DNA of 64,000 bases. Source: a virus. The stretch covers positions 1 to 64,000 of the IMG/VR virus record IMGVR_UViG_3300047089_000152. One strand, written 5' to 3'. Under the pieces are notes generated by a model. That model made no database searches. It worked only from the letters and a program-made list of their open reading frames with translations, and was not told the DNA's origin. Positions 1 to 62,817 of the stretch are shown piece by piece. Positions within the stretch are counted from its first letter, which is position 1; the number at the start of each line of letters is the position of its first letter. Position numbers and translations under genes: made by a program.

Positions 1-110
1 GGTGTGGGTGGGTGGGTGGTGACGTGGGTAGGTGGGTGATGTGTGAGTGGGTGTGTGAGGTGAGTGGGTGTAGTGGGTAGGGTGGGCATGGAGTGTGGGG
101 TGGTGTAACG
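1..110 (+). repeat. G/T-rich low-complexity tract of GGGT/GTGG/GTGAG units at the window start
   Basis: Almost C-free run of ggtg/gggt units over the first ~110 nt; non-coding. Confidence 0.8.
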
Positions 111-17243: not shown

Positions 17244-17646
17244 CCAGCACAACCACGTAACCATGGACATCAAACCGCCCGGGGAGTGCCCCGCCTGCGA
17301 CGCGTACCACCGCAGCCAGGAACAGGGACACCGGGCGGAACCCCTGATCGGGGGGGAATCTCCTATCGGGGGGGAATCACGCGACGGGGGGGAAAATCAC
17401 TTCACCCAGCAGGCCATCGACGTCGCTGTCGATTACGCGCAGCGTGTCGTGCTCATCCAGTGGCTGCTGGATCTGGGCCTCGACGGTGAGGCGGACAACC
17501 TGCGTGACGCAACCGAAAGTGACGCCGCGCAAGCAGCCTACGACATCGCCGCGAACATCGTGGATATCTGCGGCAACGCGGAGCTACCTGAGCTGGCTGG
17601 CAAACTCCGTGACTGGGCTGACCAGCACGAAAAACTGGCACCGTAA
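17230..17646 (+). CDS. Hypothetical protein
   Basis: ORF with internal IGGES repeats. Confidence 0.55.
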   Translation: MALADQHNHVTMDIKPPGECPACDAYHRSQEQGHRAEPLIGGESPIGGESRDGGENHFTQQAIDVAVDYAQRVVLIQWLLDLGLDGEADNLRDATESDAAQAAYDIAANIVDICGNAELPELAGKLRDWADQHEKLAP

Positions 17647-19252: not shown

Positions 19253-20011
19253 ATGACTACACCTGCTAGTACGGCGCCGTGGCGGCAGATTATCGCCCCG
19301 GACAGGCTGCATCCCGGCCCGGATAACCCGCGTGAGGATCCGGGGGATATCCCGGCGCTGACCGCTTCGATCAGGCGGCATGGCCTGAAGCATCCTGTAC
19401 TGGTCGTGCCCCGGGGGGGTGAAAGCCAGGAATTCGACATCGAGGACGGGTGGCGTCGCTGGCTGGCGATGAGGGACTGGATGACAGGTATCCCTTGCGT
19501 GGTCATGCCTCAGCTGCCCGGTGAGAGGCGGCCGGTGCGGGCGATCTTCACCGCGCTGGTGACAGACGCGTACCGCAAGGACCTGAACCAGATCGAGCGA
19601 GCCAAGGGGTTCCAGCGGCTGCAAAAAGAATTCGGGTTCACCGCGACGGAGATCGCCGGGCAGATCGGCATGTCCGTGTCGACGGTGACGAACGCGCTGA
19701 TGCTGCTGGAACTGGCCCCCGAGACACAGCAGGCGGTCGCGGAAAAGAAGATCAGCGCCACCGAGGTAGGCGGGCTGCTCCGCAGGTACCGCGCGAAGCA
19801 GCGAAGGAAGCTGGGTAAGCAGCCGATCGCCCCGAAGTGGGAACCGGACTGGTTCACCCCTCAGCATGCGCTCGCTAAGCAGGCGGGGGAGCTGTGTGAC
19901 CGGCGTGAGCATAACATGCGCCGCCGCATCGGTAAGGTGGCGTGCGGCCAGTGCTGGGAGTCCGTCATCCGCCGCGACCAGGATAAGGTCAACGAGGCAC
20001 CCAGTGCCTGA
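19253..20011 (+). CDS. ParB/Spo0J-family protein with HTH
   Basis: NPR...LTASIRRHGLKHPVLV...DGWRRW; RKDLNQIERA; HTH TATEIAGQIGMSVSTV. Confidence 0.85.
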   Translation: MTTPASTAPWRQIIAPDRLHPGPDNPREDPGDIPALTASIRRHGLKHPVLVVPRGGESQEFDIEDGWRRWLAMRDWMTGIPCVVMPQLPGERRPVRAIFTALVTDAYRKDLNQIERAKGFQRLQKEFGFTATEIAGQIGMSVSTVTNALMLLELAPETQQAVAEKKISATEVGGLLRRYRAKQRRKLGKQPIAPKWEPDWFTPQHALAKQAGELCDRREHNMRRRIGKVACGQCWESVIRRDQDKVNEAPSA

Positions 20012-32364: not shown

Positions 32365-33396
32365 GTGAATATCCCCTCGACCGCCGAACTTCTACTCCGC
32401 GCCGACTGGGCGCGTCCCCGGTCTCGGCAGACAGCGCTGGGCATGTCCGACCTCGGTGGGTGTCGTCGCCGTGCCGGATATCAGCTGGCCGGTTACCAGC
32501 CGGAGAAACCAAGCGGATCAATTCAAGCTGTCATTGGCACGGCAGTGCATGATGCCGTGGATGCCGCGCTGAAAAAGATGCGCGAAGACGGGATCATTCC
32601 CGCCGACTCGGTCATCAACGAGGCCGTCTCGTTTGGTGGCGTCGTAGGGCACCCGGACCTTTATGTGGACGGGGTACTCAGGGATGTTAAAACTCTCGGG
32701 TATGGGGCGCAGCTGGCGAACGCGAAGCTGTACGGTCCGAAGCGGCAGCATCTGTGGCAAGTCATGACGTACGCCGCAGCCTGTATCCTCGCGGACCGGC
32801 CGGTGCGCACTGTCCAGATTGATTACCTTGTCAGGGATTCCGGTGAAAGCTGGATATGGGAAGGGCCGTTCGATTTCGGGCAGGTCCGCGAGGCGATGCA
32901 GTGGCTGGAATCGGTGCGGGAAACGCCGCTGGAATTCCTCGCCAGGGATTACGCTCCAGATTCGGCGACATGCAAAGGCTGCCCGTTCTTCAACGCCTGC
33001 TGGGACGGCCACGTGGTCGACCGTGACGAACGATCCGTCCTGCTAGTCACCGATGACGACGCGGTGCAGTGGGCGCTGCGACTGGAAGTAGCCCGGGAAC
33101 GGATCAAGACGGCGAAAGAAGAAGAAGCCCTGTCGAAAGGCGCGCTCGACGGGCTACGCCCTAACGACAAGGGAAAGGCGGAAATAAAATTGACTGGCTA
33201 CCCGAAGACTCTGCGCTGGACAGTCACTACGCGGAAGAATCTGGACACCGAAGTAATAAAGCAAGATTATGCGAGGGGCGGCATTATGCCGCCCCTCGCA
33301 TCGAGCGAAAGCGTCCGGTTGGAGTTGCTCGCGCCGCGGGATGAGGATTTATCCTGCCTATCCAATCCCGGCCGCTCCATGCCAAGCCATGCCTAG
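32365..33396 (+). CDS. Cas4-like / PD-(D/E)XK exonuclease
   Basis: SDLGGC, GTAVH, GHPD...DVKT, QVMTYA, CKGCPFFNAC (1+3 Cys). Confidence 0.85.
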   Translation: MNIPSTAELLLRADWARPRSRQTALGMSDLGGCRRRAGYQLAGYQPEKPSGSIQAVIGTAVHDAVDAALKKMREDGIIPADSVINEAVSFGGVVGHPDLYVDGVLRDVKTLGYGAQLANAKLYGPKRQHLWQVMTYAAACILADRPVRTVQIDYLVRDSGESWIWEGPFDFGQVREAMQWLESVRETPLEFLARDYAPDSATCKGCPFFNACWDGHVVDRDERSVLLVTDDDAVQWALRLEVARERIKTAKEEEALSKGALDGLRPNDKGKAEIKLTGYPKTLRWTVTTRKNLDTEVIKQDYARGGIMPPLASSESVRLELLAPRDEDLSCLSNPGRSMPSHA

Positions 33397-33413
33397 CCGC
33401 GCCTATCCCTTGC
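33350..33413 (-). ncRNA. Solo pentamer-code unit (putative guide RNA): 11 pentamers + GGCA + GGATA
   Basis: Minus strand gcaag ggata ggcgc ggcta ggcat ggctt ggcat ggagc ggccg ggatt ggata ggca ggata. Confidence 0.7.
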
Positions 33414-43319: not shown

Positions 43320-43453
43320 GGACCGGAAGGGAAAGGCTGGGCGCGGCAGGCATCGCAGCGGCCGGGATAGCAGCGGATCGGAGCGGCAGGACAGGATTGG
43401 CAGGGCACGGCTGGGCTAGGTGTGGCTGGGCTGGGAACGGAATGGATTGGACA
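43320..43453 (+). ncRNA. Upstream pentamer-code mini-array (13 pentamers + GGCA + 13 pentamers), putative guide RNA
   Basis: ggacc ggaag ggaaa ggctg...ggagc GGCA ggaca...ggatt ggaca; extended -10 TGG-TACGCT at 43296-43304. Confidence 0.75.
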
Positions 43454-43483
43454 CTAGCCGCACCGCATGCTACAGTAGAGGTA
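43448..43483 (+). promoter_or_regulatory. Promoter for the RAMP-like gene (TGGACA-N17-TACAGT-AGAGGTA)
   Basis: -35 overlaps the last pentamer of the mini-array. Confidence 0.6.
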
Positions 43484-43520: not shown

Positions 43521-44186
43521 ATGCCACCACGCAAGACCACCACAGGCGGACCAGTCCAGCTCACCAGGCTGGCAGAAGAAGTCGCCCAAATCCACATCGC
43601 CGGGGCTACGCCACTTATTATTCATAAATGGTCGGAAAAGGCGCTCAACCAGATGCGGATCGCCCAGTCCGGGGCAATTAAGCCGCCCCGCGAACCCAAG
43701 AACGCCGAAGAAAACGCCCACGCGGCAACATACTGGGTCGACGTCGCCGAGACGATCCCCGGCATCCCCAGCGTCTCATTCAAGGCCGCCATGGTCGGAG
43801 CCTGCCGGTTCTTCGACGGCCTCCCCATGACGACAGCAAAATTGCTGTTCTTCGTCGACGGGGTCGTCAGCGAAGCCAAGGGCGACGCGCCAGCACGCGA
43901 CCTGCTCGTCCCGATTATCTCCGGCCCTGGGGAAATGCGGGAAGACACCCCGCGCAACGACAACGGAAACCCGGACCTCCGGTACAGGAATCAGTTCTTC
44001 CCGTGGAAAGCCGTACTCAACGTGCGGTTCATGCCCGCGAAGATCGCCCCCGAATCCGTCATCGCGCTAGCTGACGCCGCCGGTCGTGGCGGTGTCGGAG
44101 AATGGCGTCCATCCGCACCGAAAAGCGCGACTGGCACATACGGCCAGTTTCGTGTCATCACCCGGAAGGAATGGGAGTCGGCCTAA
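43521..44186 (+). CDS. Stand-alone RAMP/Cas7-like RNA-binding protein (Vipr-like effector)
   Basis: IHIAGATPLIIH (first RRM strand), PGIPSVSFKAAM (cf. Cas7/Csm3 PxIPGSSLKG), C-terminal G-loop GVGEWRP...GTYGQFRV; flanked by pentamer arrays. Confidence 0.75.
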   Translation: MPPRKTTTGGPVQLTRLAEEVAQIHIAGATPLIIHKWSEKALNQMRIAQSGAIKPPREPKNAEENAHAATYWVDVAETIPGIPSVSFKAAMVGACRFFDGLPMTTAKLLFFVDGVVSEAKGDAPARDLLVPIISGPGEMREDTPRNDNGNPDLRYRNQFFPWKAVLNVRFMPAKIAPESVIALADAAGRGGVGEWRPSAPKSATGTYGQFRVITRKEWESA

Positions 44187-44187
44187 A

Positions 44188-44745
44188 ATGGCGACCATCA
44201 CCGTCGAACAGCAGTGGGCGTTCAAATCGGGTGCGCGTGTCCCGGGTGGCGTCCACGCCGAGGATGTGGTGCGTGAGAAGGAACAGATGGAAGACCACCT
44301 GGGCCGCCTCGCCACCACGGAGGAAGCCGCGGAAATGGTCCTCCGCTGGCCTACCAAGTACAAGGCGCACCGGGCGTTCGCACCGGCAACCGAGAAAGAA
44401 GCACTCCACGAAGCAGTGGTACGCGGTGTTCGGAGCGCCTGGAGTTCCGTGATTCAGGTCGACGTCGAAATCACCGAGGTCACCAACCGGATTTCCGGTG
44501 ATATCGAGATCGCAACCAGGCGTGTCGACGCACCCGAAGTGAGATGGTTTCACGCCGTGCCAGCACGCGTCGGCGACACGCAACGAGTTTATGACTCGTT
44601 GCCGAATATCGCAGCCGATGCTGACAAGGAAGCGGCGCTGTCCGAAGATCTCGCCACGCAAGCACGCAACTTCTCCGCAAAAGTAGCCAGCGTCACTGGC
44701 GAGCTGGCGCGGTTGCACAAGTTGCGCAGCACCGCCGGAAATTAG
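44188..44745 (+). CDS. Accessory protein coupled to the RAMP-like gene
   Basis: Starts 1 nt after the RAMP stop; helical; directly precedes the array. Confidence 0.7.
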   Translation: MATITVEQQWAFKSGARVPGGVHAEDVVREKEQMEDHLGRLATTEEAAEMVLRWPTKYKAHRAFAPATEKEALHEAVVRGVRSAWSSVIQVDVEITEVTNRISGDIEIATRRVDAPEVRWFHAVPARVGDTQRVYDSLPNIAADADKEAALSEDLATQARNFSAKVASVTGELARLHKLRSTAGN

Positions 44746-44748
44746 ACC

Positions 44749-44786
44749 ACCAGGTTCCGGCCGGGGAAACTCGGCCGGAACCTGGT
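44749..44786 (+). other. Leader hairpin (16-bp stem, GAAA loop) immediately 5' of the main array
   Basis: accaggttccggccgg-ggaaac-tcggccggaacctggt. Confidence 0.8.
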
Positions 44787-44794
44787 CGGTAAGG

Positions 44795-46073
44795 GGAGTG
44801 GAGGGGCAGGGACTGTCGTGGCAAGGAACGGCAGGGCACGGAGTGGATTGGCAGGATAGGCTCGGCGCGGCCAGGCGGGGAGCGTTTCGGAGTGGCATGG
44901 ATTGGCTGGGACTGGCAGTATCGGATCGCAGTGGTCAGGGTAGGCAAGGCCCGGCCAGGCGGGGCTCGGTATGGCCTGCACTGGCGGGGAACGCAATGGA
45001 GTGGCAGGACCGGTGTGGAATGGCTGGGACGGGAACGGCGCGGTAGGGAATGGAGTGGCAGGAACGGTGGGGCCGGGCGCGGCGCGGCTAGGCTCGGCGC
45101 GGACGGGCATGGATTGGCTGGGCAGGACAGGATCGGAGAGCAGGGGGCTGGCGCGGCATGGCACGGAGAGGCAGGAGAGGAACGGTCGGGACAGGAGCGG
45201 CAAGGAGCGCACCGGCAGGCAGCGGCAGGGAATGGCATGGAACGGACTGGATTGGCAGGACAGGACCGGCATGGCCAGGAGGGGCATGTCCTGGAATGGA
45301 ATGGCAGGAATGGCTGGGTACGGCGGGGCCGGGCGAGCATTGGACAGGACCGGCAGTCGCGGAAGGGCTCGGCAGGGACCGGATTGCAGCGGCGAGGATG
45401 GGCTAGGCAGGAGCGGAACGGCAGGGCATGGCCTGGATCGGAGCGGCTGGGCAGGATAGGCATGGATCGGCCTGGGTAGGCAAGGAGGGGCTGGGACGGG
45501 ACCGGATTGGCAGGGCAGCAGTGGAGAGGCAAGCCGTGCAATGGCGGGGCGGGGCGTGGCATGGACTGGACCGGCAGGACTGGACTGGACTGGATTGGAG
45601 AGCAGGGCAGTGGCAGGGATCGTAGGGGTTCGGACGGGCAGGTTAGGCTTGGACGGGCTAGGCGTGGCATGGGCCGGCAAGGAACGGCTCGGAGCGGCAG
45701 GGATTGGCACGGCTCGGAGTGGCAGGACCGGACGGGTACGACGTGGCGTGGCTGGCATTGGCAAGGACTGGCAGGAGTGGATTGGCAGGGCCGGGCTTGG
45801 CATGGCGTGGCTGGGAATGGCGTGGCAGGACAGGTGGGGCTTGGCGGGCCGGGGATCGGCACGGATGGGCATGGCATGGCCCGGTAGGGCATGGCAGCAT
45901 TGGACTGGACCGGACCGGCAAGGCTTGGCTTGGCTGGGATCGGATGGGAACGGCAGGAGCGGAGCGGACTGTCGTGGCATGGCATGGCCTGGCGTGGCGC
46001 GGATCGGACGGGCAGGATAGGTCGGGCGTGGAATGGAACGGACGGGCTGGGCATGGAACGGCAGGATAGGAGT
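44795..46073 (+). ncRNA. Main pentamer-code array: 21 units of 8-17 G(G)N-NN pentamers, each closed by GGCA (putative multi-guide RNA precursor)
   Basis: 44795-46063 is exactly 237x5 + 21x4 nt; GGCA marks at 44850, 44914, 45003, 45057, 45121, 45170, 45254, 45303, 45352, 45406, 45450, 45514, 45573, 45637, 45721, 45770, 45824, 45893, 45952, 46011, 46060. Confidence 0.85.
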
Positions 46074-46130
46074 GACCCGCAGGGCTACTGTCGGGGTGGG
46101 CCGCGTGCCCCGGCAGAAGTTCGGCGGTGG

Positions 46131-46283
46131 ATGATCTTGTGCTCGTGCGGCCATCCTGCGGTCGAGCATGACCTGAACCGTTCGGAGACTAAGCGAACAG
46201 TTTGCCTGACCACCGAACGGACTACGAAATGTCCGTGCGTGCTATATTCACCAGACCTTCGTGATACACTAGAGGTACAATGA
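46131..46283 (+). CDS. Small Cys/His protein
   Basis: CSCGH...H...C...CPC. Confidence 0.45.
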   Translation: MILCSCGHPAVEHDLNRSETKRTVCLTTERTTKCPCVLYSPDLRDTLEVQ

Positions 46284-47149
46284 ACGAGACCATAGAACGA
46301 GAAGACCGCAGGGCCGTCACCGCGCTCACCTCCGGGGAAAACGCCACGAAGGTCACCGTCAAAACAAGCGACGGCAACTACGAAGAACGACAGCTAACCG
46401 TCCACGGGCTCGCACGGCTGATTCCCGTGATCGCACTGGGCGACATGGACCGGCTGATAGACGACGTGCGCGAACACGGCGTCCTCGAACCCCTGATCAT
46501 GTTCCAGGGACAAGTCCTTGACGGACGCAACCGGCTCGCCGTAGCTTCGGTCGTCGGCGTACCCGTGCAGCTCACCGAATTCGACGGAGACGAAGCCGCA
46601 GCCAGAAACTTCGTCTGGTCCGCGAACGCTGCGAGGCGGCACCTGTCCGTCCCCCAGATCGCGCTGGCCGCTGAACGGTTCGGTTTCGTCGACGCCGCCA
46701 AAGCCGAAGCAGGCCCCGACGACCCCAACCTGGATATCCGCTCGACGGTCGCACCATGGGCGCGAATCGCCGCGCGAAAGGTCGGTGCGATCACCCCGGC
46801 TACACTGGAACGGTTCCAGCAAGCCAGGATCCCCGAGGCACCCGACACGATGCGCCGGGTCGATTCCGGTGAGATCCGCCGGGTCGACGTCGCGGTCAAG
46901 GAAGCGGTCGCGGAGCGGACCGTGCTCACCGGCCGTCTCATCCAGGTTCCACCCCCGGTTGCGCGTACCGCGTGGGACCGGCTGGGCTGCGCGCGGGGTG
47001 ACGTTCTCGCCGCGGAACGCGCCATCCTGGCAGGGGACTGGGGTGGGATGGAAAGGGACCAGTTCGCTGTCCGCGCCCGTGAAATCCAGGGAGCCCTGAT
47101 CAGGATTCAGAATTTGTATCGTTATGGATCGGGCGGCAGGACCGGTTAG
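46280..47149 (+). CDS. ParB-like N-terminal domain protein
   Basis: DVREHGVLEPL...LDGRNRL...FVWSANAARRHLS. Confidence 0.8.
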   Translation: MNETIEREDRRAVTALTSGENATKVTVKTSDGNYEERQLTVHGLARLIPVIALGDMDRLIDDVREHGVLEPLIMFQGQVLDGRNRLAVASVVGVPVQLTEFDGDEAAARNFVWSANAARRHLSVPQIALAAERFGFVDAAKAEAGPDDPNLDIRSTVAPWARIAARKVGAITPATLERFQQARIPEAPDTMRRVDSGEIRRVDVAVKEAVAERTVLTGRLIQVPPPVARTAWDRLGCARGDVLAAERAILAGDWGGMERDQFAVRAREIQGALIRIQNLYRYGSGGRTG

Positions 47150-47207
47150 GACGGGCTAGGAATGGCTGGGCTGGGCATGGACTGGAATGGCAGGAATGGA
47201 ATGGCTA
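47135..47207 (+). ncRNA. Pentamer-code unit (GGCA + 10 pentamers + GGCA + 3) between the ParB-like gene and the next gene
   Basis: ggca ggacc ggtta ggacg ggcta ggaat ggctg ggctg ggcat ggact ggaat ggca ggaat ggaat ggcta. Confidence 0.7.
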
Positions 47208-62748: not shown

Positions 62749-62817
62749 GCATTGGAGGGGCATGGCATGGCACGGCCCGGAGTGCTGGGGTGGGGAACGG
62801 AATGGATGGGCAGGATA
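62749..62817 (+). ncRNA. Solo pentamer-code unit (12 pentamers + GGCA + GGATA), antisense within the tail operon
   Basis: gcatt ggagg ggcat ggcat ggcac ggccc ggagt gctgg ggtgg ggaac ggaat ggatg ggca ggata; TGG-TAGGAT -10 at 62733-62741. Confidence 0.75.

What the first reader, a model, noticed from the sequence alone, without database searches (positions are those of the whole stretch)
44795..46063. Strict grammar in the array: 5-nt register, 4-nt GGCA punctuation, 21 different units
Seen: every distance between successive GGCA tetramers is 5n+4 (44-89 nt), and the span is exactly 237 pentamers plus 21 tetramers, so there are no stray indels over 1.27 kb. Position 1 is G, position 2 mostly G, position 3 mostly C or A (GGC/GGA, with minority GCA, GGT, GTC). 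Positions 4-5 vary freely and I saw no duplicated unit. Inference: this is a selected, information-bearing code rather than a slippage microsatellite, and GGCA marks a processing or filament-capping boundary. The GGA-rich scaffold differs from the GGY scaffold I recall for VIPR, so it may be a distinct subtype. Units of 16-17 pentamers may be fusions of two 8-9-mers.
Basis: partly seen in the sequence, partly recalled or inferred. Interest (0 to 1): 0.9.

Follow-up and report, generated by a model that had tools for sequence, protein, structure and literature searches.

The report
Phage VIPR guide array, mixed GGA/GGC
The 1.27-kb five-base rhythm is the guide-RNA array of a phage VIPR system (a CRISPR-related, RNA-guided DNA binder published in 2026), of the known "staggered" type, but written with a mixed GGA/GGC scaffold that the studied E. 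coli system does not accept.

Summary
Window 44795-46063 parses as 237 pentamers plus 21 GGCA tetramers, giving 21 different units of 8-17 pentamers. Position 1 is always G, position 3 is A or C, and positions 4-5 are free.

It is the downstream vrRNA array of a VIPR locus in a 104-kb uncultured soil phage. The gene 43521-44186 encodes a Cas7-like RAMP whose family profile hits the solved SUSP1 Vipr protein. The GGCA 4-nt register break matches the published "staggered array" (bioRxiv 10.64898/2026.04.26.720920, fig. S18 legend). It recurs in almost every related locus I fetched, and this scan has noted such arrays before in at least 43 other genomes.

Three things stand out:
- The scaffold is GG(A/C), with GGA concentrated in the two pentamers at each end of a unit. 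The same holds in the one sister locus.
- A separate set of viral contigs uses almost pure GGA pentamers, still delimited by GGCA.
- GGA use goes with Glu instead of Asp in the Vipr G-loop (0 of 32 Asp proteins against 16 of 27 others).

Targets of the 21 array guides were not found. RNA ends could not be tested. I class it as a new variant of a known kind.

The parts
43320..43453 (+). Upstream mini-array: about two pentamer units, with an internal GGCA at about 43385. It lies between a DUF6283 gene and vipr.
   Evidence: Runs of 6 and 13 GGNNN pentamers. This matches the SUSP1 layout of one vrRNA upstream of vipr.
43448..43476 (+). Promoter-like site (TGGACA, 17-nt spacer, TACAGT, with TG extension) ahead of vipr
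   Evidence: Consensus scan only.
43521..44186 (+). vipr: a 221-aa stand-alone Cas7-like RAMP with G-loop AGRGGVGEWRPS
   Evidence: Matches phrog_4652. There are 607 homologues. The family profile hits PDB 36pp 'SUSP1 Vipr protein' at E 7.6e-6 over the G-loop region. The AF2 model has pLDDT 86.7. The top Foldseek hits are Csm3, Cmr4 and type VII Cas7, with E down to 4e-6.
44185..44745 (+). Candidate accessory gene (vap-like), 186 aa, no known family
   Evidence: Overlaps the vipr stop and is conserved at 75% in sister locus L045 only. It has two homologues in 5.8 billion proteins. No Pfam, PHROG or PDB hit. The AF2 model is unusable at pLDDT 44.
44746..44790 (+). Strong stem-loop between the vap-like gene and the array
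   Evidence: Free energy -41.5 kcal/mol, z -7.05. L045 has a hairpin at the same place with changes on both arms (output).
44795..46063 (+). Staggered vrRNA array: 21 guides, each [GG(A/C)NN] x 8-17 closed by GGCA
46280..47149 (+). ParB/Srx-like gene, 289 aa. It is a possible second accessory gene, and its 3' end is the near-target of the next lone guide.
   Evidence: Matches phrog_21315. Atlas gives a ParB/sulfiredoxin lead. Conserved at 72% in L045.
47096..47127 (-). [quoted passage not shown]
   Evidence: None of 100 permuted guides reached this score.
47139..47193 (+). Lone vrRNA unit: 10 pentamers plus GGCAG, preceded by GGCA
33354..33408 (-). Lone vrRNA unit ending in GGCAG, with a -10-like box upstream
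62754..62813 (+). Lone vrRNA unit ending in GGCAG, with TGGTAGGAT upstream and a hairpin downstream

Best explanation
The span is the main guide-RNA (vrRNA) array of a VIPR system carried by a 104-kb phage.

Inferred by homology to SUSP1: the + strand is transcribed, and Vipr protomers (gene 43521-44186) bind one per pentamer. They sequester G1, G2 and base 3 and present bases 4-5. These pair with DNA targets in which every third base is skipped (NNxNNx...), usually codon positions 1-2.

Inferred: each GGCA is one base short of a pentamer. A filament that grows in 5-nt register therefore cannot continue across it. That would make GGCA the 3' end mark of one guide, with the next G starting the following guide (the published '1-nt overlap'). 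The result would be 21 independent guides, either cut apart or kept as separate filaments on one RNA.

Shown here:
- The grammar itself.
- The Vipr homology.
- The conservation of the GGCA delimiter across Vipr clades and scaffold types.
- Unit-wise gain and loss in relatives.
- The 1-nt-skip rule works in this genome for guides containing GGA pentamers.

Special to this lineage: base 3 may be A as well as C. GGA is preferred in the two pentamers at each end of a guide, and the Vipr G-loop carries Glu where GGY-only proteins carry Asp.
For: Grammar:
- 237 pentamers plus 21 GGCA, with entropy 0/0.58/1.39/2.0/1.93 bits.

Vipr identity:
- The family profile hits SUSP1 Vipr (PDB 36pp) at E 7.6e-6.
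- The fold matches Cas7-family RAMPs.

Association of array and gene:
- Same-strand arrays of at least 40 nt lie beside the gene in 39 of the first 44 Vipr-homologue loci, and also in L045-L055.

Delimiter:
- GGCA is the dominant non-5-mer in all clade members with at least 40% identity and in GGA-type arrays next to 23-35%-identical Viprs.
- Whole units are inserted or deleted between GGCA marks in L010-L014.
- Most lone guides end in GGCAG, and at least three are also preceded by GGCA.

Code:
- Lone guide 79506-79570 matches three Vipr-less sister phages at 22/26, against 20/26 in its own genome. Lone guide 47139 matches 20/22.
- Skipped bases are unrelated to base 3.
- The NN composition of the array fits codon positions 1-2 (+25.6 bits antisense, +13.2 sense). 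Other phases score -54 to -108 bits.
- Array guides have no match in their own genome above permuted controls.

RNA and turnover:
- Units have no RNA structure beyond shuffles.
- The sister locus L045 has flanks 77-81% identical but shares no guide.

GGA features:
- GGA makes up 61 of 84 end pentamers against 53 of 153 interior ones, p 2e-8. L045 shows the same pattern.
- G-loop Asp: 0 of 32 proteins have 30% or more GGA. Non-Asp: 16 of 27 do, p 1e-7.

Published mechanism.
Against: - Transcription, strand, ends and processing are therefore inferred.
- No target was found for any of the 21 array guides in 1.9 Mb of sister and related loci, in exact scans of viral contigs, or in about 700 actinobacterial genomes.
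- A strong hairpin sits directly upstream of the array with no room for a separate promoter. Expression would need read-through or processing.
- The Asp/Glu correlation is not phylogenetically corrected, and 11 Glu proteins still use GGC/GGT.
- The accessory genes have no assignable function.
Confidence: 0.88

Rival explanations
1. Same VIPR array, but not cut. The array acts as one long RNA on which each GGCA register break merely separates neighbouring Vipr filaments (a poly-guide string). GGCA is then a spacer, not a processing site.
For: - No nuclease or ribozyme is recognisable in the locus, and no Rfam family was found.
- The paper states that staggered arrays were not among the architectures confirmed by small-RNA sequencing.
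- A phase break alone is enough to interrupt a filament in which two protomers share each GGY.
Against: - Lone guides with their own promoter-like box and terminator hairpin still end in GGCAG. This points to a role at the 3' end of a single guide.
- The fig. S18 legend speaks of processed vrRNAs.
- Other VIPR vrRNAs are about 100-nt species.
Confidence: 0.25
2. The A/C mixture at base 3 carries no meaning. A relaxed base-3 pocket lets A and C drift freely, and the excess of GGA at unit ends is a by-product of how units are copied or recombined, with shared end sequences.
For: - Base 3 is unrelated to the skipped target base.
- Guides with GGA and GGC pentamers match targets equally well.
- Eleven Glu-type Viprs use almost no GGA.
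Against: - The end bias is strong (p 2e-8).
- It recurs in L045, whose guides are all different, and in the lone guides.
- Base 3 almost never becomes G (5 of 237) and rarely T (14 of 237).
- Recombination at shared ends would also be expected to conserve NN there, and it does not.
Confidence: 0.3
3. It is a non-functional G-rich microsatellite, or a DNA-level structure such as a G-quadruplex tract, unrelated to the neighbouring RAMP gene.
For: GG every 5 nt could in principle form two-tetrad quadruplexes (my own knowledge, not tested).
Against: - Slippage would give repeated units. Here 21 units are all different, with maximal entropy at positions 4-5.
- Register is kept without stray indels over 1.27 kb.
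- The array co-occurs with Vipr genes across dozens of loci.
- The NN composition has a codon-phase signature.
Confidence: 0.02
4. It is protein-coding: the 475-aa or 453-aa open frames on the minus strand (44742-46169, 44693-46054).
For: Long open frames exist.
Against: - No Pfam family.
- A 5-nt period with 4-nt shifts cannot keep a reading frame's meaning.
- The sister array is unalignable while the flanking genes are 72-93% identical in protein.
Confidence: 0.01

Closest known systems
VIPR 'staggered' vrRNA arrays (bioRxiv 10.64898/2026.04.26.720920, Results and fig. S18 legend)
   Same: Head-to-tail pentamer guides in which the end of one vrRNA is the start of the next, with a 1-nt overlap. 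That equals a 4-nt unit in a 5-nt register. The array is phage-borne and lies next to a lone vipr gene.
   Different: The text available to me gives no delimiter word and reports no experimental confirmation for this architecture. Here the delimiter is GGCA (GGCAGGA in 16 of 21 cases). The scaffold is GG(A/C) with an end bias, and the array has 21 guides.
Type II VIPR of Escherichia phage SUSP1 (same preprint; structures in 10.64898/2026.04.26.720927, PDB 36pp)
   Same: The locus order is vrRNA, vipr, small accessory gene, vrRNA array. Guides have 9-16 pentamers. The 1-nt-skip reading falls on codon positions 1-2. The G-loop ...GVG(D/E)WRP is shared.
   Different: - SUSP1 guides each carry a conserved 3' tail with a pseudoknot. 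Here there is no tail, only GGCA.
- The SUSP1 base-3 pocket excludes purines, and the GGY>GGA guide was among the motif perturbations the paper reports as abolishing silencing. Here 48% of pentamers are GGA.
- The proteins align only over the C-terminal third by sequence.
Solo vrRNAs of phages and satellites (bioRxiv 10.64898/2026.10.15.759431)
   Same: Lone guides lie outside the main locus and match rivals better than self (lone guide 79506: 22/26 in sister phages against 20/26 in its own genome).
   Different: Here they sit in a VIPR-positive phage, scattered next to the genes whose rival alleles they match. This is outside the finding proper and was covered by another report of this scan.
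Class 1 CRISPR Cas7 filaments (Csm3, Cmr4, type VII Cas7)
   Same: The RAMP fold, with one protomer per fixed RNA step and a thumb that flips bases periodically.
   Different: There are no CRISPR repeats, no other cas genes and no spacer-repeat structure. The step is 5 nt, not 6, and the guide is non-contiguous.
Non-canonical VIPR repeat motifs (bioRxiv 10.64898/2026.10.21.760802: GAC/NN, CAC/NN, WGT/NN, TGH/NN)
   Same: Shows that the fixed triplet can differ between Vipr clades.
   Different: GGA/NN or GG(A/C)/NN is not named in the text I could read. Here the change lies within a clade whose other members are GGC/GGT.

Membership tests
VIPR system | A stand-alone Vipr protein: minimal RAMP with RRM core, G-loop and thumb, outside any CRISPR-Cas locus | tested here: met
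   The profile of 34 homologues hits SUSP1 Vipr (PDB 36pp) at E 7.6e-6. The AF2 model (pLDDT 86.7) matches Cas7-family RAMPs at E 4e-6 or weaker. No cas genes or CRISPR repeats were seen nearby.
VIPR system | vrRNA genes made of tandem pentamers with a fixed GGY-like triplet and a hypervariable NN | tested here: met
   Entropy is 0/0.58/1.39 bits against 2.0/1.93 bits, and units have 8-17 pentamers. The triplet is GG(A/C), not GGY. That counts as a 'related consensus' in the sense of the paper.
VIPR system | Targets read by the 1-nt-skip rule (NNxNNx) | tested here: inconclusive
   Met for two lone guides of the same genome: 20/22, and 22/26 in three sister phages, with 0 of 100-200 permuted guides as good. 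For the 21 array guides there is only compositional support, a fit to codon positions 1-2. No target was found.
VIPR system | Predominantly phage-borne, with a small accessory (vap) gene beside vipr | tested here: inconclusive
   Phage origin is met: terminase, capsid, protease and endolysin genes are present, and the record is flagged as a virus. A 186-aa gene overlaps the vipr stop, but it belongs to no known vap family and has only 2 homologues.
VIPR system | vrRNAs are expressed and co-purify with Vipr | not testable with these tools
Staggered vrRNA array (fig. S18 architecture) | Adjacent guides abut with a 1-nt overlap and have no tail or ribozyme between them | tested here: met
   All 21 junctions are 4-nt GGCA followed by G. 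No Rfam ribozyme was found. The same junction occurs in the related loci.
Type II VIPR (SUSP1-like) | Each vrRNA ends in a conserved structured 3' tail (pseudoknot) | tested here: not met
   There is no conserved sequence between units other than GGCA. Units fold no better than shuffles.
CRISPR array | Direct repeats of about 25-40 nt alternating with spacers, with associated cas genes | tested here: not met
   The tandem-repeat finder sees only periods of 5-15 nt. There are no CRISPR Rfam hits.

The most novel reading that the evidence does not exclude
Base 3 of the pentamer may be a second, protein-read layer of the code. A single G-loop change in Vipr (Asp to Glu, residue 194 here, equivalent to SUSP1 D177) would open the scaffold from GGY to GGA. 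This lineage would then use the A/C choice positionally, with GGA at both ends and a GGC-rich core, to set where a filament starts and stops around the GGCA mark. If so, natural VIPR systems come in mutually orthogonal scaffold classes, and guide boundaries are written in the scaffold itself.
Probability: 0.3. Interest if true: 0.65.

Novelty: new variant of a known kind. Interest (0 to 1): 0.5.

Why it matters
VIPR was described only in 2026, and its studied example needs a pyrimidine at base 3. A natural system that writes half of its pentamers with adenine, a set of viral contigs that use almost only GGA, and a candidate one-residue switch together give a direct route to orthogonal VIPR scaffolds. 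They also give a test of how the protein reads the fixed triplet.

The conserved 4-nt GGCA break, present in GGC-, GGA- and mixed-scaffold arrays and respected by unit gain and loss, is the best handle so far on how tail-less staggered arrays are divided into guides. The preprint did not confirm that architecture experimentally.

The array itself is otherwise an ordinary member of a kind that this scan has already met many times.

Tried and rejected
Targets of the array guides:
- Exact 1-nt-skip scans of IMG/VR for A04, A12, A19 and A17 gave 0 hits.
- Mismatch-tolerant scans found nothing for A18 in 401 genomes of the class of a Vipr-bearing Mycobacterium genome, or for A15 in 301 genomes of its order.
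- Local scans of 1.23 Mb (sister phages G001-G005 plus loci) and a further 0.7 Mb found nothing above permuted-guide controls, with one exception.
- The exception is A11 (+AG), at 17/18 in the 5' part of a terminase gene (L086-L088). I reject it as probable chance. A collection scan of the same pattern gave 20 hits in about 6 unrelated sequence families, including an unrelated perfect 18/18. Its NN also fall on codon positions 2-3, the phase the array composition disfavours.
- Decoded peptides include an HTH-like string for A15. It is untested beyond and remains a lead only.

Other negative results:
- Base 3 as a read base is rejected: it agrees with the skipped base in only 2-3 of 10-12 positions.
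- The AF2 model of the vap-like protein had pLDDT 44, so no fold search was made.
- Near-identical DNA in the phage collection: none.
- Fusion origin of the 16-17-mers: no internal GGA-GGCA-GGA signature. GGCAA pentamers occur in long and short units alike.

Full report
**1. The observation**

I read window 44400-46500 and parsed 44795-46063 by dynamic programming, allowing only 5-mers and the tetramer GGCA.
- The parse is complete: 237 pentamers and 21 tetramers, giving units of 8-17 pentamers.
- The 20 distances between delimiters are 44-89 nt and all equal 5n+4.
- The parse cost is 55.5. The best of 200 shuffles costs 292.5, and most shuffles cannot be parsed at all.
- Position 1 is G in 237 of 237 pentamers. 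Position 2 is G in 213. Position 3 is A 114, C 104, T 14, G 5. Positions 4 and 5 have 2.00 and 1.93 bits, and all 16 dinucleotides occur.
- No two units resemble each other.

GGCA by itself is not the mark. It occurs 63 times, mostly as in-frame GGCAN. GGCAGGA occurs 16 times, always at a boundary. Because base 3 is almost never G, GGCAGG followed by a non-G identifies a register break almost unambiguously.

**2. What it is**

VIPR systems were published in 2026. They consist of a lone RAMP protein (Vipr) and vrRNAs of GGY/NN pentamers. Targets are read with every third base skipped, and "staggered arrays" are described in which adjacent vrRNAs overlap by 1 nt. Structures show one protomer per pentamer.

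The gene 43521-44186, 0.6 kb upstream on the same strand, encodes a 221-aa protein with a glycine-rich loop.
- It has 607 homologues without annotation.
- A profile of 34 of them hits the solved SUSP1 Vipr protein (PDB 36pp) at E 7.6e-6 over the G-loop region.
- Its model (pLDDT 86.7) matches Csm3, Cmr4 and type VII Cas7.

The genome is a single 104,150-bp, 63.6% GC virus record. It carries terminase, capsid, protease, endolysin and RecT genes. Its terminase is at most 36% identical to that of any isolated phage, and the nearest are actinobacterial phages.

The locus order is mini-array, vipr, overlapping 186-aa orphan gene, hairpin, 21-guide array, ParB/Srx-like gene. This parallels SUSP1.

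The ORFs across the array have no Pfam family. No Rfam family matches. Single units fold no better than shuffles.

**3. Comparison with relatives**

I fetched 55 loci encoding Vipr relatives.
- Same-strand arrays of at least 40 nt lie beside the gene in 39 of the first 44 loci, and also in L045-L055.
- In all members with at least 40% identity, the dominant non-5-mer is GGCA, and units have 7-16 pentamers.
- A more distant clade (L034-L044) uses a 7-nt GGAACAN delimiter instead. L007 uses GGCG plus TTCAG.
- In five near-identical mycobacteriophage loci (L010-L014), the last unit is shared by all five and the first by four. Whole interior units are present or absent exactly between GGCA marks, and shared units differ by single NN bases. 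Units are therefore the modules of evolution.
- The one close relative is L045, a soil contig with Vipr 93% identical and flanks 77-81% identical in DNA. It has a shorter array and shares no guide. Array content turns over far faster than the genes around it.

**4. The scaffold**

Relatives use C (66-100%) and T at base 3. A is at most 8%, apart from one locus at 15%. Only this phage and L045 have 31-59% A.

Within units, GGA makes up 61 of the 84 pentamers in the two positions at either end, against 53 of 153 interior ones (p 2e-8). L045 and the lone guides show the same pattern.

A collection scan for GGANNGGANNGGCAGGANNGGA returned 61 loci. Many hold arrays that are 60-100% GGA, beside Viprs only 23-35% identical to this one, and still delimited by 4-nt GGCA. 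In those arrays GGCA is the only C-containing word. It is therefore a true delimiter rather than a shortened pentamer.

The G-loop residue before W/G-R correlates with scaffold use.
- It is Asp in 32 distinct Viprs, all with at most 7% GGA.
- All 16 arrays with at least 30% GGA belong to Glu proteins (15) or a Gly protein (1).
- Eleven Glu proteins still use GGC/GGT (Fisher p 1e-7, not corrected for phylogeny).

In this phage and L045, D194E is one of seven lineage-specific changes at otherwise conserved positions. The equivalent SUSP1 residue, D177, contacts G1. The neighbouring G-loop residues form the pocket that excludes purines at base 3. The SUSP1 GGY>GGA guide was among the motif perturbations that the paper reports as abolishing silencing. 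Glu is thus a candidate permissive change, but this is inference.

**5. Does the published code apply here?**

The genome has about eight lone pentamer units outside the locus. Most have a TGn-TAnnnT box upstream and end in GGCAG. Three are followed by hairpins.

[quoted passage not shown] This is 12 nt upstream of the unit itself, in the 3' end of the ParB-like gene, with the skipped bases at wobble positions.
- The unit at genome position 79506 matches its own genome at 20/26 and three Vipr-less sister phages at 22/26.
- No permuted guide reached these scores.

GGA and GGC pentamers pair equally well, and base 3 is unrelated to the skipped base. Another report of this scan treats these lone guides. 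I use them only to show that the rule holds in this system.

For the 21 array guides, the NN composition fits codon positions 1-2 (+25.6 bits antisense, +13.2 sense). It rejects the other phases (-54 to -108 bits). None has a match in its own genome above controls. This is as expected for weapons aimed at other elements.

**6. Targets**

Targets were not found (details under Tried and rejected). The host is unknown and the phage comes from sparsely sampled soil. The absence therefore says little.

**7. Mechanism**

Shown:
- The grammar.
- The protein family.
- The conserved delimiter.
- Modular unit turnover.
- The validity of the skip rule with GGA pentamers.

Inferred from SUSP1:
- Transcription of the + strand.
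- One protomer per pentamer.
- Silencing by DNA binding.

Inferred from the anatomy:
- A 4-nt step cannot be bridged, because two adjacent protomers share each fixed triplet.
- GGCA therefore ends a filament and defines the 3' end of a guide.
- That lone guides with their own terminators keep GGCAG favours a role at the guide's 3' end, a minimal substitute for the SUSP1 pseudoknot cap.

Whether an RNase then cuts there is open (rival 1). The strong hairpin just upstream (-41.5 kcal/mol, with both arms changed in L045) may stabilise the vipr mRNA 3' end or the array 5' end. I could not decide which.

**8. Verdict**

- The thing is a staggered VIPR array, a known kind that this scan has already reported in at least 43 other genomes.
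- New here, as far as the accessible text of the four preprints shows, are the GG(A/C) scaffold with its end bias, the existence of GGA-type arrays sharing the GGCA delimiter, and the Asp/Glu correlation.

Noticed in passing
window 47096-47193: A lone guide lies 12 nt downstream of a 20/22 gapped match to itself on the opposite strand, inside the 3' end of the ParB-like gene. The match also covers the guide's own -10-like box (TATCGT).
   Followed up: partly
G000 genome 79506-79570, 86576-86645 and 90454-90508 (beyond the window); window 33354-33408(-) and 62754-62813: Further lone vrRNA units with promoter-like boxes. The first matches three sister phages at 22/26 against 20/26 in its own genome. 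The second matches G004 at 22/28, which is borderline.
   Followed up: partly
G001 (IMGVR_UViG_3300036771_000024, 119 kb, 97% complete), G002, G003: Sister phages with terminase 81-83% identical have no detectable vipr gene. The VIPR locus is therefore accessory within this phage group.
   Followed up: partly
L034-L044 (e.g. L038:5303-7252, L041:6871-7283): A more distant Vipr clade separates GGC pentamer units with a 7-nt GGAACAN word instead of GGCA. L007:1995-2353 uses GGCG followed by TTCAG.
   Followed up: no
window 44746-44790 and L045:6538-6590: A 20-bp stem-loop lies directly before the array and is kept in the sister locus, with substitutions on both arms. In L045 it is followed by ATTTT.
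   Followed up: partly
window 2-102: A GTGG-rich tandem repeat (periods 4, 17 and 49) lies at the very start of the contig.
   Followed up: no
window 17333-17394: An 18-nt tandem repeat, GGGGGGAATCCCCTATCG, is present in 3.4 copies.
   Followed up: no
window 19253-20011: A second ParB-like gene (phrog_6218, E 1e-28) lies far from the VIPR locus.
   Followed up: no
L086:1993-2018 (also L087, L088): Array guide A11 plus its GGCAG end matches 17/18 in the 5' part of a terminase gene of another soil phage group. I judged it probable chance.
   Followed up: yes
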